Positions 7,488-58,587 are shown, counted from the whole stretch's first letter. The stretch: 63,249 bases of DNA, filler included, from Octopus bimaculoides (GCF_001194135.2; 4 parts of 4 records of this genome joined end to end with filler, not necessarily neighbours in it); one strand, 5' to 3'. Numbers and translations are program-made. The notes: generated by a model not told the origin, from the sequence alone.

Positions 7488-7650
7488 TAGTTGGAACTTA
7501 CAGAAAACAAAAAACGAAGACAGGTGTATAAGCAACAAACAGGTGTATTAGCTCGGAAAGGTGAGAAAGTCTTTTACGTTTCGAGCTCTTCAACAGAAAG
7601 GAACACGATGAAATAAACAAAGAGAATAAATAAAAAAAGCTTTTGGAGCT
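7488..7650 (-). mobile_element. Short element with hammerhead-like motif (pLTR-like, family H2)
   Basis: Follows (CA)n; same family at 48470-48640 and 58420-58580; minus strand reads cttt-CTGTTGA-A-GAGCTC-GAAA-CGTA-aaag. Confidence 0.65.
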
Positions 7651-7816
7651 GACAGTCAATTATATATATATTTATCTGCTCATTATTGCAATATTGTACA
7701 CTAATATCAATTAACTGTTTAGATCTTTCATCCGCATACAATATTTATAAATAGAACATATGAAATGATTAATTTCTTGGTTAATTTAATTGTCATTGAT
7801 TTCAATATATTGACAG

Positions 7817-8071
7817 CTTGGATGTTTGGAGATCCTCATATTCAAACTCTCGATGGCCTGAAATACTCCTTTAATGGTTTGGGTGAATATAGCTTACTAA
7901 GAGTAAGTAATAAAACCACAAACATAAATATGTTAGAGGTTCAAGCAAGGACCACTCAGGCGAAAAATGCAAATGGTACTCTGATTAACGCCACGATATT
8001 TTCGGCTTTTGCAATGAAAGACTTCATTACCAATACCTCTGCACAGGTTGAACTAGCTTCTGATGAAAAGA
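7817..8071 (+). CDS. Mucin-like gene exon 3 (VWD start, GDPH motif)
   Basis: tgacag| acceptor and |gtaagt donor; AWMFGDPHIQTLDGLKYSFNGLGEY is the canonical VWD start; 255 nt, phase 1 to 1. Confidence 0.95.
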
Positions 8072-8467
8072 GTAAGTTTTATTAATTTGTCAAACTTAAT
8101 TTCATTTTACATGTTATAATGATGAAGTGTTGTAGTGAATAAAACCTGACGCTTTTGTATCATGCAGGAATATTACAGAGCTTAAGGCGGTGATCTGACA
8201 GGATCATTAGCACTCCGGGCAAAAAAGTTTATCGGCATTTCATTCGTCTTTACGTTCTGAGTTCCAATTCTTTCAAGATCGACTTTGCTTTTCATCATTT
8301 CGGGACTGTGTTTAATGTAATCTGCTTATCCACACCTTCGAACTTGCTGGCTTTGTGCCAAAATTAAGAAAATAATATCTGTAGAGTTTATTTAGTTTAT
8401 TTCCAAATTGTTTAAAAGTGGCATTACTCTGATGTAACTTTTTTATTCTTTACTATTACTATTTCAG

Positions 8468-8611
8468 CTTTGGTCATCTACCACAATGGTATTGATAAAA
8501 CATCGGATTTTCAAGCACGTTCTAACTATAGTCTGACCGACCCCGACCTGTTTATTATCAGAAATAGTGACAACCAGACTAACCAGTCGGTGTCTCTAAC
8601 ATTCACATCTG
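8468..8611 (+). CDS. Mucin-like gene exon 4 (VWD)
   Basis: atttcag| acceptor and |gtaagc donor; open frame TLVIYHNGIDKTSDF...VSLTFTSG; 144 nt, phase compatible with both neighbours. Confidence 0.85.
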
Positions 8612-10222
8612 GTAAGCTCATTTAATGTAATCTTAAATAAAATTGTTTCAAACGCAATAGAAACTTGTTTGGAATATTGTGATATGAAATAAATATTTTG
8701 TATTTTGATGTCTTCCATGATCTGCTCCATAACGATAGTCGCCTGCTCCATAACGATAGTCATCCGTTATTTTTCATATATTGCAATGACCTTGCAAACT
8801 AGGATCATATGGTAGTTCGAATGAGTTAGATCAGCGGCACTGCAATAGATCTTAAACAAATAAGTAGTACTAAAGCCTATTTCCACGTGGCGAAACCAAC
8901 GGCAAAAACGTACATATAATTTATACGGTGACAAAAGAGATAACTAGAGTTTATTTTCATTAACTTGCTTCGCTTAAATCTCCCTGCCTGTGAGCAACAA
9001 ATGTATTCCTTTCACAAACTTTTCGATAAACCCTTCATAATATGGAAATGGTATCTTAGAGTAAAAGAAGACTTTTTTCCAGTCAGTATGCTTCTAGTCA
9101 AGAGAGCTGTCTTAGTGAATGCCTCTTCATGTGCTGTTCTTGATTTGTCCGGGAAATTTCGACAGCAAAATTCATATGCTGCATTTTGTAATTTGTTGTA
9201 TTCTACCCAAAGGTGGGATATATAGAACAGTGAACTGAAACTAAGCCCATTACCCTGATACAACATGAAAATATTGCAAAATATTTTGGTCACGAAATTA
9301 AATTATTTCATTTCTTTTATACTAATACATGACTATAACCCCAGCAAGTTCTAGCAATAAGTTATAATAGAAGCTACTTCATAATCTTCAGCCAAATATG
9401 CTGACAACCTTGACAACATTGTTACATTTACGTACGACCATTCAATAGAATTCAAAAGGATAATTCTGCATAATGTTGCTTAGAAAACTCTTTAATCTTC
9501 TGGGGCACAAAAACGCTCAGAATATAAAACGAGGCTGATAACATGAACAAAATTTGAAGTGCACTTCTAAATCAAGTATTAAGTGTCGATACCTAGTTGT
9601 TTGCACATCAGTTACTCAATTAGAAATGTTGTCCTTAATTTCCATTTTTGTGCAATGGAGGCCATCAACCATACTTGGGTTTTCTCTTCTCTTACACTGC
9701 AAAGTATAAGAAAAAACATAGGACTAATAAGAAGGTAAAAGTAGAATCTTAACTTGAAGAAATATTTCTGACCAGGTATTAAATGTCGACATTGCACAAA
9801 TTGTTTGAGAACAACTTTACTACTTTAAGAGTAAAACACTAATACAGAATTAAAGGGATATGTAGGGTCGCACTAAAATAAATTGTGACAAGGAAATTGA
9901 TGAAGGGCCAAGGCTACTGGAAAAGTCTAGTCTTGCCCTGGAGACAACAAATACTTTTAGGTGGCTATAATAATTAAAACACTTTTATTACATTTATCTT
10001 CTAATTAGTTTCTAATGCAATCTAAGAAAATGACATGACAACCATAGAACAGAAACAGAAAACTAATCAAATGTTTGAAAAATATTCTAAAACAATCGGT
10101 TAGAAAGAAAATCAGTTCTTTCAAAATTTACTTGGCATGGCTATGATACTTTCCGCTGTTAATTCTTTTCAGCATCATATTTCGAAGGTCCAAAAAGGTT
10201 ATAATTATTCTTATCTTTCTAG

Positions 10223-10426
10223 GTGTTGATGTATCAGTGACAGTTGGTATTCGCATGCTTGCAGTAACCGTGAGTTTACCAGAAGACTTCAAAAACACTA
10301 CAGTAACCAGCGGTCTGATGGGAGTGTATAATGATAACAAGACGGATGATCTCACAACACCAAATGGGACTGTTTTGCCTGAAAATTCAAGTGAAAGGGA
10401 TATTTTTTATAACTTTGGTCAACATT
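10223..10426 (+). CDS. Mucin-like gene exon 5 (VWD C-terminus)
   Basis: ctttctag| acceptor and |gtaagt donor; GVDVSVTVG...TSGLMGVYNDNKTDDLTTPNG...FYNFGQH matches the VWD GL-x-G-x-YN...DD motif; 204 nt. Confidence 0.93.
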
Positions 10427-10844
10427 GTAAGTAAAATAATTGTATTATATTTTTCACTATGTTTGCCACTAGGCAACTGATCAACTATAGAGACAGATGT
10501 TATTAGAACAAAAAAAATAAATGATTAATAACTGATTACCCTTCCGTCAGTCAAAGCTACAAGTGCAATAGTTGAAGCCCTGAATTATCAAGTAAGATTG
10601 ATCACATTCATGAAGGCCACAGACACATAGAAAACTAAATGGCTGGAATACTGAGAGAAATTAATGCGTGTCATTTCATTCAATCTTTGCTCGAGTACAA
10701 AACCATAAATACGACACGGTAATACATGTATGTCTGTATATGTATATAAGACCAAAGTACTATATATTTCTGCATATGTACATAAGACTAAAGTATATGT
10801 ACATAAGACTCTATATGTCTGTATATGTATAGAAGACCAAAGTA

Positions 10845-11010
10845 TTGGGCCAAAGCGCCAAGCACACCTCCCCACCATCACTATCAACAACAAGCTTGAG
10901 GTAATGCATGAATTTAACTACCTCGGCTCTACCATCGCCGACGTTCTCTTCCTAGACCCTGAGACGAACAGTTGAATTGGACAATCATCCTTCTCATTTG
11001 CTAGGCTTTA
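10845..11010 (+). mobile_element. RTE/BovB-like LINE fragment
   Basis: PTITINNKLEVMHEFNYLGSTIADVLFLDPETNS*IGQSS..FARL matches RTE EV-x2-F-x-YLGS...I-x2-RIG. Confidence 0.8.
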
Positions 11011-11058
11011 AACACCAAGATTACTGTCTTTAAAACTGGCTTAAAGTGATATAACCAA

Positions 11059-11504: not shown

Positions 11505-13685
11505 TTTACTTAATTTATTTCTTAGCAATAAAAGTCTGCCTTATTAATAACGTCAATCAATAATTTCTTTCCATTTCATAAATTTCCAAACTGTACTGTA
11601 TGCGCCGCAATGAGATATATCCTTGTACATTAGGCGTGCAGATATCTCTGTAGGGCATCGTAGTTAATTGAAACTTGAAAGTTCCTTGTCTTACTGTACA
11701 CAATTATTATATATTTGTTACAAATACATATACACACACACTCACAAATGCGTACAAAGCACACATACACTCAAGCGCGCACACACAAACAGACATATAT
11801 ATATATATATATACATATGTTTCTAAGGGAAAGATTGACAGTGATTTAAAGTTTCGAATTGTTCGCCGTCATCAGACCGTGATAATGTTGAGCAAGCAGA
11901 GAGTTTCATGTCACTAGCCAAAATCAATCTTATTTGTGTAAAAGGTAACAAATATGTACCCTAAGAAAAACTATTGAGTAATCCATCTGGTTAATGTTAT
12001 ATCATTTATATTTATACTTTCATATAAAATCAAACACACACACGTATTCATACATGTATTTGTATATGTGTGTCTATGTAACTGGGTGAGTATAGAACCC
12101 GATAGCAAAAATGTGGAATACATTCGAAGTGAAATTCTTAAAAACAACAACAAACAAAACGAAATATGATTAAGCTTAACAAGTTTGAAAATTATTCCAT
12201 CAGTAATAATCCGTTCAATGATACACACAACGCCTATTAGAAAAGGAGGCGTGTCAAATATGTAATTCCCAGTGCTCAAGTAGCACTTATTTTATCGACT
12301 TTCGAAAGGGGCGAAAGCTAAAGTCGACCTCGTCTGAACTCGGAATGTAATGCCGGAAGAAATGCTGCTAAGCATTTTGTTTGGCGCATTAACGATTCTG
12401 TCAGTTCACTGTATTTATTTTACCAGTAATAATCCTTTCTACTTTAGACTCAAAGCCTGAAATTTTAGGGAGAGGGCTAGTCGGTTATATCGGAGCCAGT
12501 GCGCAACTGATACTTATTTTATCGACTCCGAAAGACTGAATGATAAAGTCGACATATGCGGAATTTAAACTCAGAACATAAGGACGGACGAGATTCCGCC
12601 AAGCATTTTGTTCGGCGTGCTAACGATACTGACAACTCGCCGCCTTATTTCGGCAATAATAATAACTACAGAATCGATCAGCTGCAGTAATGTTTGCCAG
12701 TTGGAAATATTCCTCAACGTCTGACAGATCCCCTCAAATTCTACACAATCTCCCAGTTAGAGTCAGGCTATAAATAAATGGGAATCATATAACTGAATGT
12801 TTATCGCTGTAATATTCAGAATACAATAGTAAATTATATCATTTTAATTTTTAGTTAGGAAGGAAGACTGTGTACCTTTACAGTCAATACAGAACGTATG
12901 AGACGAACGAAGGGAAGACAGTATCACAGAAGCGTTGAGCTGTCTCGAATGATTAAAAAATAGTTGGCTCTGCTAAAGGCACCACTCAAAATGCAAGGAC
13001 TAGGAACAAATACCGTGCCACAAGGCATTTAATCCGATATTCATACAATACCGCCAACCCCGAAGAGGAAAAAACTAAGTTGATCTTGACGGTTTTTGAA
13101 CTGAGTACAGAGAATCTAAGCATCTAAATTTAGGAGTCTCGATCTCAATTCAAAACGTATCATGACTGTGTGGTTCAGAAGCTCACTTAGTAACCACCAG
13201 CTTTTGAGTTCAGTCACACTGTACGACAACTTGGGCGTGTGTCTTCTATAAACCAATGACTAGTAAGCGAATTTAATACATAATAACTGTATATATATAT
13301 ATATATATNNNNNNNNNNNNNNNNNNNNNNNNNNNNNNNNNNNNNNNNNNNNNNNNNNNNNNNNNNNNNNNNNNNNNNNNNNNNNNNNNNNNNNNNNNNN
13401 NNNNNNNNNNNNNNNNNNNNNNNNNNNNNNNNNNNNNNNNNNNNNNNNNNNNNNNNNNNNNNNNNNNNNNNNNNNNNNNNNNNNNNNNNNNNNNNNNNNN
13501 NNNNNNNNNNNNNNNNNNNNNNNNNNNNNNNNNNNNNNNNNNNNNTTAGTTTATAAAACAAAGTCAAGGACTTTATTATTAATTTCTTTTGCTATAATGT
13601 AATTTATATTATTTCACCTCGTTATCTGTCTTGCATTTTAAACTTATGCCAGGATTGTTTTTTTTTTGTTTTTGTTTTTTCTCAG

Positions 13686-13925
13686 GGGCTATAAATACTT
13701 CTCTGTTTAAATATCCGAAGGGTTTTTCAAATGCCGACTATACCGACACTTCTTTCGTCCCCCTTTTTATTGATAAAAACTCGGAGATTTACAAGAAAGC
13801 TTTACAGATATGTAAAGCAGACGATAACGCTTGTATTTATGACTACATCGCAACTGGTGATGAAAGTATTGCTAAAGCAACTGAATCCCTTGATACGGAA
13901 GCCAGAGACGACTTCCAAGCTGCAA
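13686..13925 (+). CDS. Mucin-like gene exon 6 (post-VWD W..SLF.Y / C..CIYD region)
   Basis: ttctcag| acceptor and |gtaagc donor; WAINTSLFKYPKG...ICKADDNACIYDYIATGD; 240 nt, completes the split W codon from exon 5. Confidence 0.92.
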
Positions 13926-15245
13926 GTAAGCAATATTATTTTTCTACTCTTTTTCAGTTTCTATTTTCTGCCTTGTAACACACAACTAGGAAAATGTGTT
14001 TTGGCTGATCAATCTCAAAAGATCCACCCTAATAGCCGAAGATGATTAGTGGGGAAGGGGTCTTTGAATAATTTTATAACAGCATAAAAGTACCACAGAC
14101 AAGACAACTCTTCCGTTCTTGTTATGGTTCATATTCACCGTTATATTGGAGAATCTTGAGGTCTGTTTATGATGATGATGACGATAATCATGATGATGAA
14201 GATGTTACTGCTGCTGCTTCTGCTGATGATGATGGTGATGATGATAATAATAATAATGATCATAGTTTCCAATTTTGACACAAGTTAGGCGATCTAAGAG
14301 AAGGGAATAAGTCGATTCCATTGACTCGAGTACTTTACTGGTGCTCTAATTTGGCGACCCTGAAAGGATGAAGGCAAAATTGCCATTGAAAGGATTTGAA
14401 CGCAGAACGCAATGAGCCCTGAAACATTCTGTCTGACGCGCTAAATATTCTGCCAGCTCATCAGTTCCATAAAATAATACGCTATGAAGTAAGAGCGGTA
14501 CAACTTATAGTTATACTTTTATGACTCAGACCATTGCAGGATTCCTAGCAATGAAATGAAACGACCACGCATATGTATTCCATGATTATCACAGGTCAGG
14601 CCGTAAATAACATTTACAGCAACCACACTATGCGACTGTCCTTCGGTAATATGTGATGCGTACATACACTCATTATTACTATCTCTTGTATCTTCTATAG
14701 AATAAATATAATATCGTTTGAAATACGATTTCAGTGCAATTCTAGAATTGCTGAAGCGCCTGTACTAAGCAAATGAGCTCAGCCGAACAGGCATCAGTCA
14801 CTATCATGATTGATGGAAACAGAGGCTAATACTTCACCGCGTTCATTGTACAGGGTGTAATTCATGAACCAGATTGGCTTTGGCTATTGTCGGGATTATA
14901 CTATTTCAGAGGATATAAATTAAGATGGTAGCTCATTTAGCTTTCGCAAGTTATGTGAGCTAAAGTGGATATATTTAAACCTTCTCTGTTCCACTGATAT
15001 CTTTATTAAGATAACCAATATTACGTTATATGCCGACTAATAATTTCAGTAATTTCCCCATAAATTTCGGTAAGGTAGTATATACAGGGAAGATAAAATT
15101 TTAGATGTTTCGAGAAAAGTTGTTCATCAGAGAGAGAAAATATCTTTTCAAAAACGTTTCACCGACAGACAAATATTAGTTTCCTCGGCTTTTAAATTAC
15201 TTTTTTGACAGCAAGATTATTGATAACAATTCTGTTTTATCACAG

Positions 15246-26918: not shown

Positions 26919-27319
26919 GTAAGTGTATTTCTGCTTAAATGATTACTTAGTGCACATTGAGCTGTTATTATTTTCGTTTTTTCGTTATTTATGTGCCAAT
27001 ATGTTGCAATCTTTTGTTTCTTTCATTATATTCTCTCTACAATATTTCTGCTACATATTCCATGTTTTTATCATTACTACTCCTCATGCAATTTAACCTG
27101 TTGGGTGTCTACGCATATTTTCTTGATATTATGTTTGCTATAAAAAAAATTGTTTGCCTAAAAAAAGAATAAAATGAAATCGAACATTTGTTTTAATTTA
27201 ACTTTATTTAGTAGTCCAGAGTTATTCTGTAAATTATCAGTTAATTAGAGTAACATTTCATATGTAGCTTATGATACATTTATATATTTTATATACATTT
27301 GTTATACTTTTGTCGGTAG

Positions 27320-27574
27320 AGTGTGATGAAGAACATTTTGGTGAGAAATGCGAAGGAGATTGTAACATATGTAACGAGAAATCAACTGAAAGATGCGATA
27401 AAGTAAGTGGATGTATCTGCAATGAAGGTTGGAAAGGTAACAAATGTGAAACTGATATTGACGAATGTGAAAGTGCAAGTGTCTGCTCTGCAGATGAAAT
27501 TTGTGAAAACCAAAATGGAACTTACGAATGCAAATGCCAATCAGGGTACAAAAAGGAAGAAAATAAGTGCGTAG
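27320..27574 (+). CDS. Mucin-like gene exon 14 (laminin-type EGF plus cbEGF), last exon found
   Basis: cggtag| acceptor and |gttggt donor; ECDEEHFGEKCEGDC...CICNEGWKGNKCETDIDECESASVCSADEICENQNGTYECKCQSGY; 255 nt; no stop codon, so the gene continues beyond this exon. Confidence 0.92.
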
Positions 27575-27659
27575 GTTGGTATGAATTTTGGAATTTTATT
27601 GAAATTTGTATGTTCATTTGCTTATTATGGTGAAAAGATATTTATATTGAAGCTGTCAT

Positions 27660-27880: not shown

Positions 27881-27883
27881 ATT

Positions 27884-28690: not shown

Positions 28691-28734
28691 AAACTATAAT
28701 GATAATAATAACAACAGCAACAACGATAATAATA

Positions 28735-28794
<60 letters not shown>

Positions 28795-28939
28795 TTCCCA
28801 GAAAGCCATGAACTGCTAACAAAACTTTACAACGATGTTTTGAAAAATCCTAGTTTGATGCCCTCTTGGCTAGTTAATGGTTTAACATTCCTGCTTCCAA
28901 AAAATGAGGAAACAAACGAACCAAAAAATTATCACCCCA
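28795..28939 (+). mobile_element. R4/Dong-like RT N-terminal fragment following (ATA)n
   Basis: HELLTKLYNDVLKNPSLMPSWLVNGLTFLLPKNEETNEPKNYHP resembles P-x-WL-x2-G-x-T-x-L-x-PK...NYRP. Confidence 0.8.
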
Positions 28940-28983
28940 NNNNNNNNNNNNNNNNNNNNNNNNNNNNNNNNNNNNNNNNNNNN

Positions 28984-30770: not shown

Positions 30771-30859
30771 TAGTACATAAAAGAGTGTATACTCATATGT
30801 AGTTCTCATTATTCAGGCAGTATTTGGTTGGTGTCTTCCTGTGGATTGTTGGGATGGTA

Positions 30860-33800
30860 GTTCCAGTGGTTTTGGTATTATTTTTTGTTTAGTTTCAGTT
30901 GGTATTTTCAAATAAAGTATTCTTCCTTGACCTTACGAAAATGTTCATTTTCTGTCTGTAGTTTGAAGAAAGAAAATATTTTGAATTTTCTTTGCCCACA
31001 TTTTTCGAAGTGTTCACTGCAAGTTGTGTTTCTAAAAGTGGTGTCATGGATTTTTTTGTTTACGTACCGTTACTCTCTCATATAATCCAATGCCTGTTTC
31101 ACCAATGCAGTATCCTTTGTATTCAGAGCATGTGGCACAGTAGATTAGTTTTCTAGATTTGCAATTCATATTTGCATTTATTTTAAAAGTGATATTATCT
31201 TTAAAAGTAATTTGTTCTCCTTCTTCAATGTCATCACAAGTTCCATGGTGAGGATCACCACATTTTTGAACTCTCTTTCTTGTTTCTATAGTAGTAAATC
31301 TTGCTTGGGTTAAGAACTTTTTAGGTTGGGTGCTTGATGTCTGCTATAAATTATTTTTGAATCTGTTATCAATTTGTTCATTCTTGATAATTGTAGAAGA
31401 ATTGGGAGGTATCTTTTTGCAGTATTGATGTTGTGATTTCTTGGGTTGTGGGTGATGACAAAAGAAATGCTTATGAGTTCATTTTTATTTTTGTGTGTAT
31501 ATTTTCCTCTGAAGTTTGGATGTTTTTTGCCCTGGTGATTGCTGTATCAATTAAACTAGTAGGATATGTTTTGCCCTGGTGATTGCTGTATCAATTAAAC
31601 TAGTAGGATATTTTTGTTCTTTTAGAAATATTTTTAATTCCTGTAATCTTTTATCCCTTAATTCTGCATCTATTACCATAGTGCAAGTTTGTTTTGCCAT
31701 ATTAAATGGTATGTTGTTTTTTTGTTTTTTTGGTATGTGAAGGATGGGGAAATGAAAGTTCAAATACTGGTGTGTGTATAGGTTGTAAAAGAGATCTGTT
31801 TTTATGGTGTTGTTTTCTTTTATAAGAAGTATGTCTAAAAATGGTAATTCCTTTGTGTGTTGTTCCATGGTGAATTTTATTGAGGTATGTAAATTATTTA
31901 AAAGTGAGTGAGAGCTTCCTAAGTTTTCTTGCTTTTGGTCCAAAATATAAAGCAGTCATTCAAATACCATTTCCAATTGGTTTTTTATATAAATGGAGAA
32001 TTGTTTGTTAAATATTTCTGTTAGTTGAGAATAGAGTTTGACCTTTGAGAAGCCCATTACGAATGTTGCATAGGTGGGGGTTGCGTTTGTCCCTATCATT
32101 GTTCCTTTTATTTGTAAGTAGGTGTTGTCGAAGAAGTTATTATTTTCTAGTATTAATTTTAATCCTTCTAAAATGAAGGTTTTTGAGAATATTTCCATGA
32201 TATGATTCGGGTGTTTTGTTAACCAAAAATTTATAGCTTCATTTCCTAGATCATATGGGATATTGGTGTATAGACTAGTTACATCAAAACTAACAAAAAT
32301 TGTCTCCTGGTGGACACTTTTAGTTATGTAGTTTAAAAAGTCCATATTGTCCTAGACAAAGCTTGGTATCATTTTGCATAAAGGTTTTAGAACTATATCT
32401 ATTAAGTTGCTTAAGCATTGTGTATTGGATTCTGGTCCTGCAATGATTGGGCATAGTTTCAGGTCTCTGTGTTTTGGAATTTCAACATGTTGAATTGTTT
32501 CCTTTTATGTTGTCTTGGATTTCTTTTGATTTGTGGCTCTTAAATAAACCATAGAAGTTACTGGTTTTACTTAGTTGGTTAAATAATTAACTTCATTCTC
32601 AGTTAGGTTATTATGATATTTTAAGACCAGTTTATGTATCTTGCATTGTATTTTTATCTTCATTTTGGTTTAGCTTCTTGTAGAAGTGATGGTTGCTGAA
32701 CTGTTCCATCACCATATCTGTGGAATGGTTCTTGTCCATGATAACTATTGCTCTACTTTTGTCAGCTTCTTTGAAAATTATCGAAGAGTCTTTTTGTAAT
32801 TTTTTTAATGCTTTCAATTGATCTTTGGATATGTTGGATTTACATTTCCTCTCTATCTGAGCTAATATATTTTTCAAAATTTTCGTCTCTATTTAAGAGA
32901 GGGCTGAATCCTGTTCTGTTTTTAACCAGTGATTCATCTGTGTGTCCAGTATTTAGAAAAAATTCTCTCAATCATAATTTTCAGCAAAATTCTTCTGTGT
33001 CTTTTATGAGTTCAGCTTTGGTTGGATTTTGGAGTGGGTGTAAATTTCAATTCATTTTCCAGGAGTTTAATTTCTTAGTAGAGAAATTTAGTATTTTCGG
33101 TTTGCTTATGTTTGCTTTCTAGTGTTTTGGGAAGAATGGTGTTATTTTCTTTTTTTTTGGTGTTAGATTTCCTGTCTTAAAAAATGGTTTCCATTGGCAT
33201 TGGGAGTGTTTATGTGAGAATTTTGTATTTTTTTATATGTAAATATTTTAGGTTGGTTATTCATGGGTAAGTATGTTCTTGGTTGTTGGATTGGGGGTCG
33301 ACTCATTATTCTATTGTTGTTCCATGTGGTTCATTTGTGTCTATGATTTGGTCTCTGTAGAGTTCTATTTGTTCTTTAGTTGGGGTTGTATGTTCCCTTG
33401 TTTCTTGTTACATCTGTGTATGATCGCAAATTTGTATTTCTTAGAGGACTGAAGTATCTTTGGCTATTTTGTGAGCAAACTTCCTTTCTTTTGGTGTTGT
33501 TTTGAAGTCTGATGGATTTCGTAGTAGGTCAGTGTTTAAGTTTTATCTGGGTTTTCCCATAGGTGTTTTCGTAATGCAGTAGCAAGAGGATTTTTGATTC
33601 TAAGATCTTAAACTTGATCTCCTCTCTATTGGTGTCAGTTTTCCACATATCTAGAAGATTTTTTTTTTTTGGATACTTCCACTGCTTCTTTTGTTAATTT
33701 CTTCATGTATACAGGTGTCATATTTTTCAAATTTCTTTTGGGAGTTTGTTACTCTAAGGCGAAGAAGTGTGATTACAGGCTCAAATCTCTGTAGTGCTAA

Positions 33801-34240
33801 ATTGAGGTGAATCTTTGTTTCTTCATTTGGCTCCAATGATACAAAATTTTCTTGGGAGTATTACTTCTTCTCTGCTCCTCCACTGTTGATATGTGTTAGC
33901 TAGGTTTTTATTTTTTAAGGCTCTCCTATATGCTTGTTTTCTTTAATTTAATATGTTATTCCAGATGTTTTTCATCTGGCTTTTCTTTGTGTATGCCTCT
34001 TTTTCCAAGTTGAGTTCATTCCATTCTTTTAATATGTTTTGTGTGGTTGAATTTAGGCTGTGGATATCTGTTTCTGGAGTTTTGCTTTGGTTTTCATTTT
34101 AATGATGGTCTGTAAGAAGGGAATGCAGTGTTTCTCTGTAGATCAGTGTTTCTTGTTCCATTTCATGGAAGGCATTAGTAAAGGATTCATATTTGTTTAT
34201 ACTGGTTGAAAGTTTTGGGGAAATTTCTTCTAATAATGTT
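30860..34240 (-). mobile_element. Near full-length decayed Penelope-like element (RT plus GIY-YIG)
   Basis: NISKDQLKALKKLQKDSSIIFKEADK; IFVSFDVTSLYTNIP; YLQIKGTMIGT; ELPFLDILL; GETGIGLYERV...HFEKC..KVKEEYFI; 45-bp internal tandem duplication near 31521-31610; microsatellites at both ends. Confidence 0.9.
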
Positions 34241-35028: not shown

Positions 35029-35188
35029 CTGGGTTAATAAAGGAACATTGTTTTCCAACTTCTCCAAAGTTCCAGCTGGTAAATTGTAAAAAGCTTCATT
35101 TGTTGGTGCAAAGATGGTCAAGTTTTGTTTAGTTTCAGACAGAACTCGGACAAGTAAATAAGATTTCAATACAAGACGCCGCAAAATG
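35029..35188 (-). CDS. Fasciclin gene exon (second FAS1 H1), last exon found
   Basis: cttttgcag| acceptor and |gtaaca donor; SILRRLVLKSYLLVRVLSETKQNLTIFAPTNEAFYNLPAGTLEKLENNVPLLTQ; 160 nt, phase 2 to 0. Confidence 0.9.
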
Positions 35189-35275
35189 CTGCAAAAGAAA
35201 TTCAGTACCACCATTATCATCATCATCATAATCACTACCATCGCCACTCTATTACCAGTACCATTACCAAACCAA

Positions 35276-35307
<32 letters not shown>

Positions 35308-44480: not shown

Positions 44481-45629
44481 CTGTAAATCTTTGCTCATGA
44501 AGCCAAGCTAAGAAATATATATATATATTACAAGTAGGCAAATGAAAGAAAGAGGCACTTGACACATTTAGTAGGAGTTACATATATTAACTAAAACGGA
44601 TTGATTTGGCTCGATGCAACTTAAAAGTTTCATAGGCATCTTGCAGGAACCCAACTCATTCAACTGAATTGGTTATCTGAGCCTGAATGAGGTAGGTTTC
44701 TGTAAGAAGCCTATAAAACCTTAAGTTGCATGGAACCAAATCAAAATGTTTTAAATGACGACGACGACGATGATGATGATGGTGATGGTGATGGTGATGG
44801 TGATGGTGAAGATGAAGATGAAGATGAAGATGAAAATGAAGATGATGAAGAAGAAGAAGATGAAGATGAAGAAGAAGAAGAAGAAGAAGAAGAAGAAGAA
44901 TGCCCTGATGCAGTACCAGGCAGTGGCTGTCATGCCTTCTAAGTTCAGTCGCGTATTGTCTTTGCCTTCGAAACGTGGAGTAGATGGAACAGGGGCAACT
45001 GACGAAGGGGTATACGCTTTATGTTGCATGTCTCATTTCTCTGTTTGTTTTTTTTGTTGTTCGAAAATAGTTCGTTTTCTGTTTTCATTTTATGTTTTCG
45101 TTTCTCATTGTGTTTAACGTTTTTTTGATTTCCTGTACCCATATATGCATGTATGTTTACATATAAATGTCTTGTTCTGATTGGAAGTGTTATCATGTAC
45201 TTTGTTTTGTCTTGGTATAAAAGATGGGCTACAACAAATATTCTGCTCAATACCACAGATTTGCCTGTCAGTTGTTTGACTATAACCAGCTGAACATGTC
45301 CCTTAGTGGTTGATGATATGTGCATCTCTGATCACGAGCAGAAGTAGTTGGGGAGCATCACACCCATGTGTTGAGAGGAATTCTTTAGAGTTTGAATAAT
45401 TCACCTCAGGAAACATGGATGTTTCATTCAACATCCTTAAACAACTCTTATTCAAGGACCATTTGAACGGGATGAGCTACTTAACCTGAAGAAAATTCTA
45501 ACTGAGCCTCACCTGCAAGGTCATGCGCTGTTTACCTTGATATGAGATCACCATGTCGCGCACATATGGTTGTGATGCATGTGCCTGATGTACCCTTATC
45601 AGACGGGTAGTCATGATAGATATATTGGG

Positions 45630-46290
45630 CTTTGTATACTTCCCCTCAATGTCACTTTGATAGCATGCACTGCTCTGAAGCTATGCCAACACTATGGAAT
45701 AACACCTATATACACTGGAAGCTATGCCAACACTATGGAATAACAACAGAAAAAAGATGGTATAAACACATGCCAGNNNNNNNNNNNNNNNNNNNNNNNN
45801 NNNNNNNNNNNNNNNNNNNNNNNNNNNNNNNNNNNNNNNNNNNNNNNNNNNNNNNNNNNNNNNNNNNNNNNNNNNNNNNNNNNNNNNNNNNNNNNNNNNN
45901 NNNNNNNNNNNNNNNNNNNNNNNTATCAATACCAGCAGATGACAATGTTTCCCTAAAAGAAATGGAAAAACTTTCAAAATACAAAGACCTAGAAATAGAG
46001 GTAACTCGAATGTGGAATCTAAAAACAGAAACAATTCCTATCATAGTAGGTGCCTTAGGTATAATAAAAAAATATTCAGACAAATACATAACAAAAACAC
46101 CAGGACTTACAAATATATATAACATACAGAAAATTGCACTACTGGGCACTGCACACATCCTACGCAAAACACTTTCAATACAGTAACCATAAGAGCATCA
46201 CAGCAAACCACAGCACATACCCAAGGCACACAGAGCTGCGCTCGGTAGTGAAGTGAAAGTACGTTATAAAAATAAAACTACTGAACAATA
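45630..46290 (+). mobile_element. R4/Dong-like LINE 3' end (RLE), gapped
   Basis: KEMEKLSKYKDLEIEVTRMWNLKTETIPIIVGALG...QKIALLGTAHILRKTL*, followed by a (TAA)/(GAA) tail. Confidence 0.85.
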
Positions 46291-46730: not shown

Positions 46731-47339
46731 AATAAAAATCTCAGCAAAACTGAATATACTTTATTAACATGAATAAAAAGAAATAAATTCTTATTACAGT
46801 AACAATAACTTTGTTTTATGAACATATAATACACACATATATACACACACATAATGTTCTTAGTGAGAAGGATGCAATTGATTTTGAGAAATAATTTTGT
46901 CAAAATGCAGCTCTAAATTAGATAAACAAATGCATAACTCATCTACCATTTGTAATCGGTCCCTTATTTTTCACTTCATTTCCCTAAATGCAGAGATACC
47001 TAAGACATCAAGCAAAGACTATAAGTAGTGATCCTGATACACATCATCATCGTTTAACGTCCGCCTTTCATGCTAGCATGGGTTGGACGATTTGACTGAG
47101 GACTGGTGAAACCGGATGGCAACACCAGGCTCCAATCTAATTTGGCAGAGTTTCTACAGCTGGATGCCCTTCCTAACACCAACCACTCAGAGAGTGTAGT
47201 GGGTGCTTTTACGTGTCACCTGCACGAAAACGGCCACGCTCGAAATGGTGTCTTTTCAGGAAGAAATGATCAGGCTAAGAAACAATCTGCTATGCAACAA
47301 CTACCTGAAGAATATACTATCTACTCCAGTTAGGAAGAG

Positions 47340-47830
47340 GAGAGGATGAAACCCATAAACTGAGCACACCCTATATCAAAGGCCTCTTGGAAAAGATACA
47401 AAAGATATGTGATCCATATGACATCAGGACAGTATTCAGAAGTAATTCAACACTTAGCAAATATCTTCTCTGAGTAAATCCATGCCTAGAAGAGAATATG
47501 ACCAAAAACTATGTACGCTCTATCCCATGCAGTTGTGGTAAGCTATACAAATGCGAAACAGGCTGCCCTTTTAAAGCAAAGGAAGAGGAACATTGTAAAG
47601 CTGTAATATGAGGGGATGTTGAAAAATTGGGTATAGCCAATCATGCATGGAAAAATGGAGACCACCTCCCGCTGTGGGATGAAGTTAAAATAGTCAACTG
47701 AGAACACCAATGGAAAATACAAAAATTAAAAGAGGCTGCACATATGCTAGGGTACAATAACCTCCTAAGCAGACCTAGTGCAGATATGAATGTAACATGG
47801 GAACCAGTATTAAGAAAAGATAAAATACTA
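47340..47830 (+). mobile_element. Penelope-like GIY-YIG endonuclease fragment
   Basis: PYIKG...IRTVFRSNSTL; SIPCSCGKLYKCETG; HLPLWDEVKIV..EHQWKIQKLKEAAHMLG; a mariner TIR fragment interrupts near 47605. Confidence 0.8.
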
Positions 47831-48038
47831 GGTTTATAAGCCCTAAAATTCACTCTATAATTGCCCACAGGCATATAGTGTAGTGGACAAGAGCACAAGC
47901 TACTAATACTCAGATTCTAAGTTCAGTCCCAGGCAGGGACTTGTAGAATATTATCAACAGGAAAATAACATCATATGTCAAGCAGTGATGGTGGGACAAA
48001 CATGAACACAAAGACACACATGTATAAATATACATATG

Positions 48039-48097: not shown

Positions 48098-48633
48098 ATC
48101 TTCTTTCAGTTTCCGTCTACCATATCTACTCACAAAGCTTTGGTTGGCCTGAAGACACTTTTGCCCANNNNNNNNNNNNNNNNNNNNNNNNNNNNNNNNN
48201 NNNNNNNNNNNNNNNNNNNNNNNNNNNNNNNNNNNNNNNNNNNNNNNNNNNNNNNNNNNNNNNNNNNNNNNNNNNNNNNNNNNNNNNNNNNNNNNNNNNN
48301 NNNNNNNNNNNNNNNNNNNNNNNNNNNNNNNNNNNNNNNNNNNNNNNNNNNNNNNNNNNNNNNNNNNNNNNNNNNNNNNNNNNNNNNNNNNNNNNNNNNN
48401 NNNNNNNNNNNNNNNNNNNNNNNNNNNNNNNNNNNNNNNNNNNNNNNNNNATACAGTCCCCCCACCATTTTTTTTCTCTTCTTGTTTCTCTCCTTGTTTC
48501 TTTCTGTGTTCCTTTCTGTGGAAGAGCGTAGGCTTGAAACGTTAAAGACTTTTTCAATTCCTGAGCGTTACACTAATACATCTGTTTGTTTTCTACACCA
48601 CCTGTCTTCATCTTTTGTTCATTTGTGAATTCT

Positions 48634-48673
<40 letters not shown>

Positions 48674-48678
48674 AGTTC

Positions 48679-49011
48679 AAATAAACAAACAATAAAATTA
48701 GCAATAACAGACAACAAGGAATGCATTAGTTTTGCGGTCAGTAAGAAGAGAGAGTTTTTGATGTTTCAAGCATAGCTCTTCATCAGAAAAGAGAAAGGAA
48801 AAAGTCTGGAGAAGAAAAAGAAATTGCCAACAGCACATGTGTAGTTATGTAACTATACACATACTGTTGGCAATTTCTTTTCCTTCTTTGGACTTTTCCC
48901 TTTCTCTTCTCTGACGAAGAGCTATGCTTGAAATGTCAAAAACTCTCCCTTTTTACTGAGCATCCGCATCCTCTTGCCTGTTATTGTTAATTTTATTGTT
49001 TGTTTATTTTA
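48679..49011. repeat. ~330-bp palindrome of hammerhead-motif element H1 (inverted pLTR-like pair)
   Basis: Arms 48679-48847 and 48850-49011 are reverse complements around a 2-nt centre; solo arm at about 51090-51270. Confidence 0.9.
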
Positions 49012-49149
49012 TTTTGACAATATACCACATGTTCACACAGGTCTTCTATGTTCTATCTGATCAAAAATACCTGATTCATGGATTTTCTTACTCTACCATT
49101 GGATTATGTTATCTTTAAATTCCTTTGGAGTATGTAATTTCTGCACCAA

Positions 49150-50102: not shown

Positions 50103-50262
50103 CTAAATGGAACCTGAGGATAGAATTCATAAGTGTGGAATTTCTTTTTATCTTGTCAGGTAGTTTCTCTAAGCTTTCATTAGTTGGAGCAAATATTGTG
50201 AATTTGGAATAAGGGTTCCTCAGTATGCTGTCAAGGTTTGCTTTCTTCAACAACTTCAAAAA
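50103..50262 (-). CDS. Fasciclin (FAS1-repeat, TGFBI/periostin-like) gene, first exon found (FAS1 H1)
   Basis: FLKLLKKANLDSILRNPYSKFTIFAPTNESLEKLP...ILRFHL; TIFAPTNE is the FAS1 H1 motif; donor |gtaaga; acceptor position is less certain. Confidence 0.85.
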
Positions 50263-50975: not shown

Positions 50976-51007
<32 letters not shown>

Positions 51008-51307
51008 ATATATATGTGTATGTGTGTGTGTGTGTGTGTGTGTACACACACACATATATATATGTGTATATATATATGTATATATATATAGTCAATTCAA
51101 ATAAACGAGTAAAAATTAACGAGCAGCAAGAGAACGTGCAAAAGAAATATATTAGCTTGATGGTCGGTGAAAAGAGAGGGTTTGACTTTTCGAGCATAGC
51201 TCTTTGTCAGAAAGAAGAAAGGGGATAATCCAAAGAAGGAAAAAAATCATCAACAGCACGTGTGAAAGTTACATATATACTTTTTTCTTATATTCTTTTA
51301 TTGGTTT

Positions 51308-51680
51308 CAGTCATTTTGACTGCGGCCATGCTGGAGCACTGCCTTTAGTCGAATAAACTGATCCCAAGACTTACTCTTTGTAAGCCTAGTACTTATTCTA
51401 TCGGTCTCTTTTGCCGAACCACTAGGTTACACCAACATCGGTTATCAAGCGATGGTGGAGGGACAAACACAGACACACATATATATTCTTTCAGATGCAT
51501 GTAAGCATCTTGAGAGTCTTTCAGAAATTTTCAGATTCTTTCCGTTTCCGTTTACCAAATCCACTCTCAATGCTTTGTTCGGCCCGAGGCTATAGTAGAA
51601 GACATTTGCCCAAGGTGCCACGCAGTGGGACTGAACCCAGAACCGTGCGGCTAGTAAGCAAGCTACTTACCACACAGAAT
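51308..51680 (-). mobile_element. SINE family A copy with a templated 48-nt insert
   Basis: Family A text interrupted at 51495 by sequence identical to 52538-52572. Confidence 0.75.
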
Positions 51681-53779
51681 TTTACCATTAAGCTGTAATT
51701 AGCAGAACCATATGCACGCCCACCAATGGCGGTGGGCAACTCTGTATACGATTCTGATGATTACGGTTCATTACAAATCAGGCTGATGAGGAATAGACAA
51801 ATGGTAAGAATTTGTTAAATCCGAAACTAGTTCCTGTTTAATAATGCTTGTTTAGGTGATTTTAAATGTCTTGCCCGCTCACGTTTTTGGTATGCTGCTA
51901 TATTTCATGTTGAGAACAATCTAGGTCTTAATAGACACAAGATGTTTAATGAGAGACGGAACATGTAAGATACAAGAATTTTTATTAATCACCGCAGCTG
52001 TTTCGTCCCATCTAACATCGATCTCTCACGGGTAAGACACTTAGCAACTGGTTCAGGAGCATCCGACGGTGCAAGTGGAGGAGAAATAGATATTACTCGT
52101 TTAAGTAACAGTTTTGCAATGTATCATCTCAGTTCGTGTAAAGAAAAGCAGCAAATTAAAAGATATATCTTAATTTACATAGAAGATCAATAATTAATAA
52201 CAGATGTAAAAAAGAAGCAAACGCGCAATACAACGATAAAAATATTAAATACAGCGAAAAAGTATTAAATATAACCGTTAACAGATATGGATGTATAAAC
52301 GTTCTCGCGTGGGTTGTATGGCGCAAGTACACTCACTCATACAAGTATCCACGAAGATGTAAGCATACCCACAAGTGTTGTTTGGCGCACATACGTTCAC
52401 ATAGCGAATTAAATAGCTCTTGATATTTATAAGAATGAGGAGGTTATAGCTAAATTTAATTCATCCATATCTGAAGGTGAATTATGTTAACAGTTACTCA
52501 AATTCATTCCCAATGCATTGTGCGAAAGTACATTTATATGCATGTAAGCATCTTGAGAGTCTTTCAGAAATTCTATTAATAATCTTCTCATTGGTCTGCA
52601 GAATAGACAGGGATTCCTCGGAGCAGAATCAGCATCTCCTGGAAATGATATTATATGGTTTTGCGTGCCTTACTATGGACCAAATTATGTTATACACAAT
52701 TTTATCTTCCTTAAGTCGCTACACAAAATCGGCCAAAGATATTGAATGTCTCTTATTGATTTTCTTGAAGCTGGCGACATGGTTGCGATAACGATTCTTG
52801 GATTAATTGGCCGTTGTATATATAGGTGCAGGCGTAGCTGGTTGCTAAGAAGCTTGCTTCCCAACCACATTTTTTATTTCTTTATTGCCAACAGGAGGCT
52901 AAACGTAGAGGGGGAAAACAAGGACAGACATAGGGATTAAGTCGATTATATCGACCCCAGTGCGTAACTGGTACTTATTTAATCGATCCCGAAAGGATGA
53001 AAAGCAAAGTCGACCTCGGCGGAATTTGAACTCAGAACGTAACGACAGACGAAATACTTTTTTGACTATAATGCTTGCTGGCCACTTTACTATCTATTAT
53101 TATTATTATTATTATTATTATCATTATTATTATTAATAATAATAATAATAATAATAATATAATAATAATAATAACAACAACAACAATAATAATAATAACA
53201 ATATCTTCATAAACACACACACACACACACACACAAACACACACAGACACACACACACACACACACACACACAACACACACACACACACACAAATAAACA
53301 AATAGGGAGTGCATTGCGTTACATAGATATTTCAAAGGATGAGCGGTCATGTCTGTCTGGGCTTCCCGCTCTGTCCCGTAGGACTTTTCCCTTTTCTCCT
53401 TTGCGTTACTTCACTACGTTCGTTTGATAGCCGAAAGGCTTTGTTCTGTTGTATAAGATATACATGTACAATTATTCTTTTTCTGTGTTTTATTTTTGTA
53501 TTATTATTTAATTATTCTTTTGTTATATACGTACAATTGTTATCTTTTTTTAGCTTGCTTTGTTTGTTTTTGTCCTTGTATACATTCGCTTGCTATTCCC
53601 AGAAGCTTCTTGTTCTGGTGCTGCCTAAAACGGAGTGGTATCAAGGTTAAAAGTGCAATACCACTAGGATCTTTTGGACATTGTTGAGGAAACAACTGCG
53701 AAATTTCTGTGTATTATGTTTTTGTCTATTTTTCCGTTTGCGTTTGTTAATTTTCCGTTGTTATGTTGTCAAATTTTTC

Positions 53780-55434: not shown

Positions 55435-55493
<59 letters not shown>

Positions 55494-56580: not shown

Positions 56581-56689
56581 GATCTCAAAAAAGCAGTCCT
56601 AGAACCTGGCGCCTCTTCTGACGAAGTTAATATAATTTCTTCGTTGGGTAGATGTGCTCGTAAATGGCTAATTCCACTTTAGATGGTGT

Positions 56690-57050
56690 CTACTGTGACC
56701 ATCAAAATTTGGTAAAACCTTCAGCGGTAGTATCCCTACCTCAAGGCTTTTGAAGAGCTACTGAAGATGTGTTCCGGGGCTCCTCTCCTTGGGTACAGAG
56801 GGGAAGCTGGCAATTCCAGTCTCCTGCAGTAAAACAAGTTGGATGCGCTTGTTATATATCGTAAATTGTTTGAATTAATGTTTATCTGGTGGGGCTTTGC
56901 TTGGTCAAATCTTAGCCAGGTTCCGTGATGTCTAGTTCCAATACACTTGCTGGTTTGTTCCCTATCAATCATTGCTGTATGGTTAAGAAGCTCGATTTGC
57001 GCCCAAATGGTTTGAGGTTTTGTTCTACTACACAGTACTTCGCGCAAATG
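56690..57050 (-). mobile_element. RTE-X-like LINE 3' fragment, heavily decayed
   Basis: Minus-strand similarity to R-x2-FAGHC-x-R...PAS...LW-x-P and DR-x2-W; weak. Confidence 0.5.
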
Positions 57051-57185
57051 TCTTCTACTACATAGCGTTGGGGCGATCAGTGTTTTGTGAGTAAATTCGG
57101 TAGACGGAAACTGTGTGGAAACCCATCGTACATATATGTGCGCGTGTGTGCGTGCGTGTGTGTGTGTGTATAGGTAGATAGATAT

Positions 57186-57213
57186 GTTGATTGATTGATG
57201 ATTGATTGGTCAC

Positions 57214-57283
<70 letters not shown>
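57186..57283. repeat. (GATT)n microsatellite
   Basis: Direct reading. Confidence 0.95.
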
Positions 57284-57285
<2 letters not shown>

Positions 57286-57636
57286 CAATATGATAATGCA
57301 TGTGCGTTATGAAACTGCCGGACTTGGTGAGCTTGTACCGCTGAGAAGCAGAAATGACCGCGAAATGTCGATATCCGTCACTCTCTTTCCCTTCGTGTCG
57401 CCGACCTTCGAGGTATACAATGTTTTTGAACATGATACGACTTTAAAGGGGTCTCCCTGGACGAAGTACCGCAGCTTCACAGTGTTTAACCATGTGCATA
57501 CATTAAGTATGTATATCGATAATGTTTACATCATTCAAGCTGCTTCAAGGGAAAATACCAGGTGGTGTCGCATTATGGCTGCAGTGCAATGAGTGAAACG
57601 AGTGATAGTACATATTCATAAATAAATGCATACATA

Positions 57637-57680
<44 letters not shown>

Positions 57681-57789
57681 CACGCACACACATACACACA
57701 CACTCACACACACATACACACACATAAATGCATACATATATACATATAAACATACACATCACTGTAGCGACTAGACTATCGGATGTCAC

Positions 57790-58260
57790 AATACGCTTCC
57801 ATTTTTTCTTGATTGCTCCACTCCTCCATCTAAGCCCAAATCTTTTTGTTAGATTTTCTTATCATCGTGAGCACCTTCCGAGTGACCTTTTCTGATATCT
57901 TAGGCACCACTCAATAACTGCATAGATCCATTTATTGTCTGTAAACCTTGTGACATGTCCAGCTCAGTGGAACCTGTGATCTCGGTACTCGATCAGGCCG
58001 TTCATCCCAGTCCGTTCGTTACTTCACTTCTGATATACTCTTGTAATGATGATATGAGCATGGATCTTTCCAGAACCTTCTGCGTCGTAGCCAATTGATG
58101 CTGTTCCTCTTCGTAGCAGCCCCACCCCACTTGTATATAAGAGAGCAAGTAGAACTGCGTTATTTAAAAGCCGGACATCTTTTATTGAGATAAACACCTT
58201 CCATCTTATCCTTATTCTCCTCGAACTTTCAGCATCCACGTCTCGGCGCCGTTACACTGT
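57790..58260 (-). mobile_element. RTE-clade LINE 3' fragment
   Basis: DAESSRRIRIRWKVFISIKD...LLNNAVLLALLY; WAGHVTRF.DNKW-like downstream text. Confidence 0.7.
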
Positions 58261-58587
58261 AAGTCGAAGAAGTCATTCCTTTACTTCCTCGGTTTCATCA
58301 CTTCCCATCTCTATTTGGCATACATACCTACATACCTACATACATACATACATGCACACACACACACATATATATGCATGTATATACGTATGTATGTACG
58401 TGTATATATATATATATATAGTTGAAATTTATAGAAAAACAAAAGATGAAGAGAGATGTATGAACAACAAGCAAGTATATTAGTTTGACGCTCGAGAAAA
58501 TGAAAATGTCTTTACGTTTCGAGCCTATGCTCTTCAACAGAAAGGAATAAGAGAAAATAAACAGAGAGAGAGAGAGTGAAAAAAGCC

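What the first reader, a model, noticed from the sequence alone, without database searches (positions are those of the whole stretch)
7571..58545. Dispersed family of mostly (TA)n-anchored short elements carrying a minimal hammerhead-ribozyme-like fold
Seen in sequence: at least six copies of stemI-CUG(A/U)NGA-A-GAGC-loop-GCU(C/U)-GAAA-(C/U/A)(G/A)U(C/A/U)-stemI'. They lie at 7571-7600 (-), 48512-48547 (+), 48755-48790 (-), 48907-48941 (+), 51181-51213 (-) and 58510-58544 (-), with a degenerate copy at about 15104-15133 (-). Stem II (GAGC/GCUC) is kept while its loop varies (UAU, AUAG, GUAG, none). Stem I varies between subfamilies (uuu(u)/aaa(a) versus cuuu/aaag). Stem III is reduced to the ACGU palindrome, which could pair only as a dimer. 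The 48755-48790 copy has an intact CUGAUGA...GAAA core. Most host elements start at (TA)n and one at (CA)n. Established: Penelope-like elements carry minimal type I hammerheads in their pLTRs, non-autonomous retrozymes exist, and an extra A between A9 and G10.1 is tolerated in a natural viroid hammerhead. Inference: these are solo pLTRs or a retrozyme-like non-autonomous family mobilised by the Penelope elements also present here (30860-34240, 47340-47830, 5150-5400). Most copies have core substitutions (A6>U, G8>A) and may be dead.
Basis: partly seen in the sequence, partly recalled or inferred. Interest (0 to 1): 0.75.

Follow-up and report, generated by a model that had tools for sequence, protein, structure and literature searches.

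The report
Penelope retrotransposon tails, variant hammerhead core
The six short repeats carry a known kind of minimal hammerhead-ribozyme motif and are cut-off tail ends of Penelope-like jumping genes (shown for three, likely for the other three); the commonest version, with over 10,000 copies in this genome, has a fixed change in the catalytic core that is predicted to weaken self-cutting, which has not been tested.

Summary
The six motifs are real and far above chance; the seventh (15104) is not confirmed. They belong to related repeat families with an estimated 24,000-100,000 copies. Family B (7571, 48512, 58510) is the 3' end of a Neptune-type Penelope-like element: RT, CxxC linker, GIY-YIG, about 600-nt UTR, hammerhead, then (TA)n. 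Window 5155-5505 is a fragment of that parent. Family C (48755, 48907, 51181) is an older relative with no parent ORF found. The motif fits the published minimal PLE hammerhead (Cervera and de la Pena 2014). Corrections: (TA)n lies at the 3' end; the PLEs at 30.8-34.2 and 47.3-48.0 kb are not the parents; A6>U is not decay but the fixed state of family B (10,226 exact copies against 1,588 with A6). Among four B subfamilies 0 of 30 structural positions differ, while N7, loop II and H17 do. Family C masters probably had U4>C. Cleavage is untested. Published work shows it is not needed for PLE insertion in vitro. The scan noted PLE hammerhead ends before on other DNA of this genome.

The parts
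7486..7649 (-). Family B copy (3' end of a Neptune-type PLE); hammerhead 7571-7600 with U6 core and loop II deleted; predicted cut after 7575; ends in TATA then (GT)n
   Evidence: lies among exons of a VWD/MUC4-C8/EGF gene on the opposite strand
48476..48640 (+). Family B copy; hammerhead 48512-48547, CUGUGGA core, G10.1-U11.1; predicted cut after 48543; ends in (TA)17 at 48637-48670
   Evidence: 90% identical over 157 nt to the 3' end of PLE copy L072
48671..48847 (-). Family C copy; hammerhead 48755-48790 (CUGAUGA, ACAU in place of ACGU); ends in the same (TA)17 from the other side
48847..49024 (+). Family C copy, head-to-head with the previous one (inverted arrangement described for PLE insertions); hammerhead 48907-48941 (CUGACGA, AUGU, GUC triplet)
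   Evidence: arrangement in PMC8557442 Fig. 2 legend
51091..51274 (-). Family C copy; hammerhead 51181-51213 with G8>A (CpG-type) and AAGU; ends in the TA-rich tract 50976-51090
58421..58584 (-). Family B copy; hammerhead 58510-58544, CUGUUGA core, one A lost from stem I; ends in (TA)n
5155..5505 (-). Broken internal RT fragment of the Neptune-type PLE whose 3' end is family B
   Evidence: 81-82% identical over about 380 nt to L072 and L070; its relatives lead into UTR plus family B hammerhead
51677..51945 (+).
47257..47973 (+). Decayed PLE 3' part of another family; not a parent of the motif; cut off before that family's own hammerhead
30800..34240 (-). Decayed A-rich PLE (RT, linker, GIY-YIG); not a parent of the motif

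Best explanation
The repeats are 5'-truncated 3' ends (pseudo-LTR stumps) of related Neptune-type Penelope-like retrotransposons, shown for families B and A2 and likely for family C; they were likely copied by the element's own reverse transcriptase and endonuclease from uncleaved RNA into (TA)n microsatellites, and the hammerhead they carry is predicted to cut only weakly, as a dimer or with the element's protein. Shown: the order RT, CxxC linker, GIY-YIG, stop, long low-complexity UTR, hammerhead, about 100 nt, (TA)n; variable 5' ends; inverted head-to-head pairs; U6 fixed in family B. Inferred: priming at cut (TA)n; early stalling in the C- or CA-rich UTR, which leaves mostly 150-190-nt stumps; a template that was uncut or re-ligated, because every copy spans the cut site. 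Inferred for the core: the master elements keep the fold, G5, G8, A9, G12, A13, A14 and A15.1-U16.1 but tolerate attenuating changes (U6 in B, probably C4 in C, G17 in part of A2), because cleavage is not needed for insertion and must stay low in monomers. Odds on this sub-question: about 0.5 that the U6 form cuts detectably as a dimer or with protein, about 0.1 that it cuts as well as the A6 form. The genomic stumps are monomers that decay neutrally and probably do nothing.
For: L072 is a continuous copy from RT to hammerhead to TATA; its ORF part is 40% identical to P0001 and 30% to P0002, which has PF00078 plus PF01541. Of 20 RT-hit loci read over 10 kb, 5 have UTR joined directly to a family B hammerhead on the ORF strand and 2 more have an inverted copy; several of the others end in assembly gaps. 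L077 adds a tandem case, and L078 ends in the same UTR. A sister PLE leads into family A hammerhead elements in 9 of 25 loci, one of them with the hammerhead deleted (L159 is a further 44-nt partial hit). 5' homology to the parent ends 17-250 nt before C3 in 53 of 53 copies, 47 of them within 80 nt. The motif matches the published consensus U-rich, CUGANGAH, G...C, GAAAN-palindrome-NUH, and Table S1 there lists 5'-truncated PLEs with only a 3' hammerhead (PMC4209133 supplement). Position 6 counts: U 10,226, A 1,588, C or G 512. In 40 unselected B copies: U6 40; N7 U23 C9 G6 A2; position 17 U17 A14 C9 G0; genome-wide H17 7,777 against G17 52. Four B subfamily majority strings differ at 0 of 30 structural positions, 3 of 6 free positions and 19 of 80 downstream flank positions (Fisher p=0.0015). 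In an anole PLE, catalytic mutants did not affect insertion in vitro, cleavage needed the protein, and no RNA-seq reads began or ended at the cut (PMC11167929 passages). Natural A6C gives low but detectable activity (PMC3088659 section 8; PMC7151607 passages).
Against: No full-length copy with two pLTRs was found in 20 loci of this gappy assembly. No ORF or shared upstream sequence was found for family C in 30 loci; L267 shows upstream CA-rich sequence ending like the family A UTR, by eye only. Pfam gave no hit on four L072 ORF pieces and only a sub-threshold RVT_1 hit on the 31956-32351 piece. The Neptune label rests on the CxxC linker motif, not on a tree. The selection test rests on four subfamilies, in effect two or three branches; positions are not independent; 33 of 57 copies fell outside clusters of three or more; some copies were found by a core pattern. 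G17 avoidance reflects only about two master-level changes, and subfamily A2 has G17 in 11 of 26 unselected A copies. The double-hammerhead fold is 8-26 kcal/mol above the cofold minimum in 7 of 7 A/B copies tested. RNA-seq depth is flat across the predicted cut with no pile-up of ends in 3 of 3 raw-read runs.
Confidence: 0.8

Rival explanations
1. Same origin, but the family B hammerhead is catalytically dead. The fold is kept only as a binding or initiation signal for the PLE protein, or as part of a promoter.
For: Three related lineages each carry a different core defect: U6, C4 (907 exact CCGANGA copies; U4 is C in 14 of 30 and G5 is A in 5 of 30 family C copies, the CpG signature), G17. 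Cleavage is dispensable in vitro (PMC11167929). No read ends at the cut. U6 can pair with A15.1 in the predicted monomer fold.
Against: The positions that vary between B subfamilies are the ones free in an active hammerhead (N7, H17, loop II), while G8, G12 and the A15.1-U16.1 pair are kept. A natural change at position 6 retains activity, more so in Mn2+.
Confidence: 0.35
2. The short copies, family C above all, are a non-autonomous SINE- or retrozyme-like family with its own 170-190-nt unit, mobilised in trans by PLE proteins.
For: Most copies are short, and many 5' ends cluster 70-90 nt before the core. No ORF link for family C in 30 loci. A few tandem or close pairs exist (L007/L008, 156 nt apart). 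A 2026 preprint derives animal retrozymes from pLTRs (abstract and passages).
Against: B and A2 show a continuum from stumps through partial UTRs to ORF-bearing copies. Copies are collinear with a fixed 3' end, not circularly permuted as family D is. Tandem arrays are rare among the listed matches.
Confidence: 0.12
3. The motif is a chance hairpin in an unrelated microsatellite-associated repeat.
For: Monomer folding energies are unremarkable for most window copies (z from +1.0 to -2.3). Rfam lists no hammerhead.
Against: Exact fit to the published PLE minimal-hammerhead consensus, four pair types at the stem I outer pair, and position at the 3' end of PLE ORFs.
Confidence: 0.02

Closest known systems
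[quoted passage not shown]
   Same: U-rich 5' flank, 4-bp helix I, extra nucleotide between A9 and G10.1, G10.1-C11.1, palindromic ACGU, mostly single motifs from truncated PLEs, opposite-strand pairs 100-700 bp apart, thousands per genome.
   Different: Fixed U6 in the largest family; none of the rows of their Fig. S3 that I read has U6, but their descriptor required CUGANGA. Helix II is only 4 bp. No octopus entry in the supplement file that could be searched (file 1 not searched).
EN+ Penelope-like elements, Neptune clade (Craig et al. 2021, PMC8557442, passages)
   Same: RT, Zn-finger-like CxxC linker, C-terminal GIY-YIG, hammerhead near the 3' end, microsatellite targets, inverted 5'-truncated copies.
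   Different: Very long C-rich or CA-rich 3' UTR (about 600 nt in B, up to more than 1.4 kb in A2); no full-length copy recovered; clade not tested by phylogeny.
Poseidon element PAc of Anolis carolinensis (PMC11167929, passages)
   Same: pLTR hammerhead; insertions span the cut site; no RNA-seq ends at the cut.
   Different: Canonical core, and the ORF starts inside the hammerhead; tested biochemically, which these are not.
Natural position-6 variant A6C of phage Bcep176 (PMC3088659 section 8; PMC7151607 passages)
   Same: A natural change at core position 6.
   Different: C rather than U, a single phage sequence, a monomeric ribozyme; here more than 10,000 copies of a retroelement.
Metazoan non-LTR retrozymes (PMC7229834, passages; bioRxiv 10.64898/2026.07.22.740005, abstract, methods, passages)
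   Same: Non-coding, type I hammerhead, PLE-related. Fits family D at 51677-51945.
   Different: Families A, B and C are not tandem units, have minimal rather than canonical hammerheads, and A2 and B are attached to ORFs.

Membership tests
Minimal type I hammerhead of PLEs | CUGANGA core strand | tested here: not met
   Met in family A (A6 in 24 of 26 unselected copies). Not met in family B (U6 in 40 of 40) and probably not in the family C master (C4 in 14 of 30)
Minimal type I hammerhead of PLEs | GAAA, A15.1-U16.1, palindromic 15.2-16.2, NUH triplet | tested here: met
   Family B unselected: A15.1 40/40, U16.1 40/40, C15.2 36/40, G16.2 38/40, H17 40/40. Part of subfamily A2 has G17.
Minimal type I hammerhead of PLEs | Extra nucleotide after A9 and G10.1-C11.1 pair | tested here: met
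   Extra A in 40/40 B, 25/26 A, 30/30 C; G-C 19, G-U 8 of 27
Minimal type I hammerhead of PLEs | Helices I and II with covariation | tested here: met
   93% of cells paired, 0 of 500 shuffles as high; helix I outer pair has four Watson-Crick types; helix II invariant in that set. Rows were hand-picked and related.
Minimal type I hammerhead of PLEs | Self-cleavage as dimer or with protein | not testable with these tools
   No assay possible; RNA-seq shows no ends at the site, as for the active anole element
EN+ Penelope-like element | RT plus C-terminal GIY-YIG in one ORF upstream of the motif | tested here: met
   Families B and A2; not found for family C
EN+ Penelope-like element | Two direct pLTRs flanking a full ORF | tested here: inconclusive
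   Not seen in 20 loci with many gaps; L077 has two B ends around an internally deleted ORF piece
EN+ Penelope-like element | Inverted 5'-truncated copies and microsatellite targets | tested here: met
   Window 48671-49024; L290 and L297; (TA)n after 31 of 53 copies
Neptune clade | Cys linker between RT and EN | tested here: met
   CSRPRCRTC in L070; degenerate forms in L072 and L151
Neptune clade | Placement in an RT phylogeny | not tested
   No labelled reference set was on hand; Nematis also has a linker
Non-LTR retrozyme | Tandem or circularly permuted non-coding units | tested here: not met
   Not met for A, B, C (collinear, fixed 3' end). Met for family D: L180 and L179 are more than unit length with different terminal repeats, period 552 nt
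Non-LTR retrozyme | Abundant circular RNA | tested here: inconclusive
   Family D: 287-411 reads per about 12 million records, both orientations, no end at the cut

The most novel reading that the evidence does not exclude
A very abundant hammerhead in this genome is a natural CUGUNGA (U6) variant that standard CUGANGA descriptors cannot see. It stayed under selection through several rounds of amplification and still cuts, weakly or only with the element's protein or a different metal ion. Together with U4C and G17 sister lineages, this would mean Penelope elements gain from a detuned ribozyme and that published counts of PLE hammerheads miss whole families.
Probability: 0.3. Interest if true: 0.6.

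Novelty: new variant of a known kind. Interest (0 to 1): 0.33.

Why it matters
What the hammerhead does for Penelope-like elements is an open question: it may process tandem transcripts, make circles, or ride along. Here sister lineages of one genome differ by single core changes (canonical, U6, probably C4, G17) and in copy number by several fold, and the U6 lineage is the largest. That is a ready natural series for testing whether weaker cleavage goes with greater spread. The element type itself is ordinary.

Tried and rejected
Rfam scan: only microsatellite-driven miRNA matches among the 150 rows shown. Pfam on PLE pieces: nothing above threshold; identity came from the protein search (3 hits among 449 candidates). 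PLEs at 30.8-34.2 and 47.3-48.0 kb as parents: rejected. The 15104 copy: not supported. The thrice-repeated CTGAGGA-CTGGT-GAAA at 35734, 47096 and 50703 fails the stem descriptor. A long-range switch: a conserved GAGCG 20-30 nt downstream can pair with the 3' strand of stem II (mean probability 0.41 in 26 B and 0.28 in 29 A copies, against 0.26 and 0.36 for stem II), but no clear covariation was shown, so it stays a lead. Sequencing-run search listed no indexed holder on record as RNA; three raw RNA runs of the same species label were laid instead. Reads fall equally in both orientations, so strand and promoter cannot be read. Literature: searches for A6U, for CUGUNGA-type strings, for octopus plus Penelope plus hammerhead, and for PLE core terms listed no report of a U6 PLE hammerhead or of these families; only the top 20-25 rows were seen for the larger result sets (one search had 748 papers). 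Lunse et al. 2017 on PLE hammerhead variants and Arkhipova et al. 2017 on Terminons were not available, and the supplement of PMC7229834 could not be read; any of these may already list a U6 variant or octopus motifs. An O. vulgaris repeat paper mentions Penelope families but not ribozymes (passages). No structure or complex prediction was run; none bears on the question.


Full report
Setting. The window is a pack of four stretches (joints at 28940, 50876, 61489) from a 2.34-Gb genome. The first three lie on C6, C8 and C16. I take it for an octopus from recalled SINE sequences and genome size; earlier scan notes say the same. No call named the species.

Observation. The six main motifs are present as described and are the only matches to a relaxed pattern; 200 Markov controls gave none. 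Three profiles built from 30, 30 and 3 copies find these six and not the seventh. Read on the hammerhead strand each element is pyrimidine-rich, has 60-90 nt before the core and about 100 nt after the cut site, and ends in a microsatellite, mostly (TA)n. Copies 48512 and 48755 end in one (TA)17 from opposite sides; 48755 and 48907 are head-to-head. The 15104 motif has no stems, no profile hit and no dispersed copies.

Abundance. Exact pattern counts with the rest of the motif fixed: U6 10,226, A6 1,588, C6 or G6 512, and C4-A6 907; reversed controls 0. Forty 10-kb stretches at evenly spaced places on the 19 largest contigs held 9 elements (6 B, 2 A, 1 C; 10 profile hits, two from one deleted copy; reversed and complemented controls 0). 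That gives about 50,000 copies (Poisson range 24,000-100,000, my arithmetic). Families: A (core CUGANGA; stem I GUUU/AAAC in A1, AUUU/AAAU in A2), B (CUGUNGA; CUUU/AAAG; window 7571, 48512, 58510) and C (loop UAU; window 48755, 48907, 51181).

What they are the ends of. A search with the window ORF fragment 5002-5517 gave 152 scored matches. L072 is continuous: RT motifs, thumb, Cys linker, GIY-YIG, stop, about 600 nt of C-rich UTR, a family B hammerhead, TATA. Its closest proteins have RVT_1 and GIY-YIG annotations. Of 20 such loci read over 10 kb, 5 show the UTR-hammerhead junction and 2 an inverted copy; the rest are truncated or break at gaps. A second PLE family leads through a CA-rich UTR into family A elements in 9 of 25 loci. 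Family C is clearly related in its 5' flank and downstream GAGC, but no ORF was found in 30 loci.

Structure. In family C position 4 is C in 14 of 30 and G5 is A in 5 of 30, like the other CpG sites, so the master likely read CCGACGA, and the 'intact' CUGA of copies 48755 and 48907 is likely a decay product. The double-hammerhead fold is not the energy minimum in any of 7 copies, in line with the weak dimer activity reported for this motif class (PMC4209133).

The U6 core. Family B copies found by a flank pattern, by PLE linkage or in sampled DNA have U6 in 40 of 40 (of the 30 flank-pattern loci 3 were truncated below the hammerhead). Position 7 takes four states and position 17 three (U, A, C); G17 occurs in 52 against 7,777 exact copies. 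Four subfamily majority strings (9, 3, 6 and 6 copies; mean divergence from their majority 4.5-6.9%) differ at 0 of 30 structural, 3 of 6 free, 19 of 80 downstream and 40 of 55 upstream positions. The upstream tract aligns poorly. This points to selection on the fold after U6 was fixed, with the limits given in the Against line. Published data on position 6 concern A6C: under 0.1 per minute in one study, and much better in Mn2+ than Mg2+ in another. I found no report of natural U6, but two key papers were unavailable.

RNA. Three raw RNA-seq runs of the same species label give 1,206-1,833 family B reads per about 12 million records at 85% likeness, equal in both orientations, flat across the predicted cut, with no pile-up of ends there. 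This fits passive read-through of monomers. The same absence was reported for an anole PLE whose hammerhead does cut with its protein and whose insertion does not need the cut, so it neither shows nor excludes activity.

Mechanism. Most likely, the PLE protein nicks (TA)n, primes reverse transcription near the 3' end of an uncut transcript and usually stops within 200 nt, sometimes with an inverted second copy. The hammerhead would act only in tandem transcripts or when bound by the protein. Shown steps: anatomy, linkage, truncation, targets, fixed U6. Inferred steps: priming, template state, any cleavage.

A missed element. A stem-aware descriptor gave 4 hits in the window against a control mean of 0.08: two family B copies, one doubtful hit at 7251, and an intact hammerhead at 51783. 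The last belongs to a young repeat (20 fetched loci, 98-100% identical over the 161-nt query; 70 exact pattern matches) with a 552-nt period, variable ends and more-than-unit copies with different terminal repeats. This fits a non-LTR retrozyme. RNA reads are few and show no cut. Earlier scan notes describe 340-350-nt retrozyme families in this genome; whether they are related was not tested.

Comparison and verdict. It works like, and for A and B belongs to, the EN+ Penelope-like elements with minimal hammerheads described in 2014. Families B and C fail one defining feature, the CUGANGA strand, which makes them variants. The scan has already noted PLE hammerhead ends in this genome and a core-altered, high-copy case in another genome; a look-up by the family B sequence found nothing. 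Interest 0.33: ordinary element, one testable oddity.

Noticed in passing
window 51677-51945 (+); L166-L185: Young 552-nt non-coding repeat with an intact type I hammerhead, circularly permuted more-than-unit copies, often beside (TA)n; 70 exact pattern matches. A candidate non-LTR retrozyme and the best candidate here for an active ribozyme.
   Followed up: partly
window 3365-3530 (-): 68% match over 173 nt to family D, followed by CUGAUGA...GAAAC (about 3357-3411): an old relative of that repeat.
   Followed up: no
L237-L255, 200-300 nt after the ORF stop; also L110:2792: A further minimal hammerhead family (ACAC CUGAUGA A GGCUG...CAGCC GAAA CG UU GUG) at the 3' end of the PLE family seen at window 47257-47973.
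   Followed up: partly
families A, B, C, 20-30 nt after the cut site: A GAGC(G) motif is kept across families and can pair with the 3' strand of stem II, a possible off-switch for monomers.
   Followed up: partly
L091, L095: Stem II reads GATC/GATC in place of GAGC/GCTC, a compensatory change in a minor family A lineage.
   Followed up: no
L039 and L048, 50-400 nt upstream of the hammerhead: Two family B copies share an upstream sequence that is not the known UTR and had no match in 20 PLE loci; perhaps the 5' region of the element in internally deleted copies.
   Followed up: partly
L304:1152-1287: Another hammerhead-like end with core CCGACGA and stem II GGGC/GCCC.
   Followed up: no
window 7723-8085, 13598-13978, 27268-27633 (+): Exons with VWD, MUC4-type C8 and calcium-binding EGF domains; local paralogous sequence lies within 170 kb on C6.
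   Followed up: no
window 34951-35292 (-): Fasciclin-domain exon; similar text appears near 50175-50223.
   Followed up: no
window 28700-28940 and 45620-46186 (+): Fragments that read like the RT and C-terminal end of another non-LTR retrotransposon (label recalled, not tested).
   Followed up: no
window 2966-3330: 37-nt tandem repeat split by an assembly gap.
   Followed up: no
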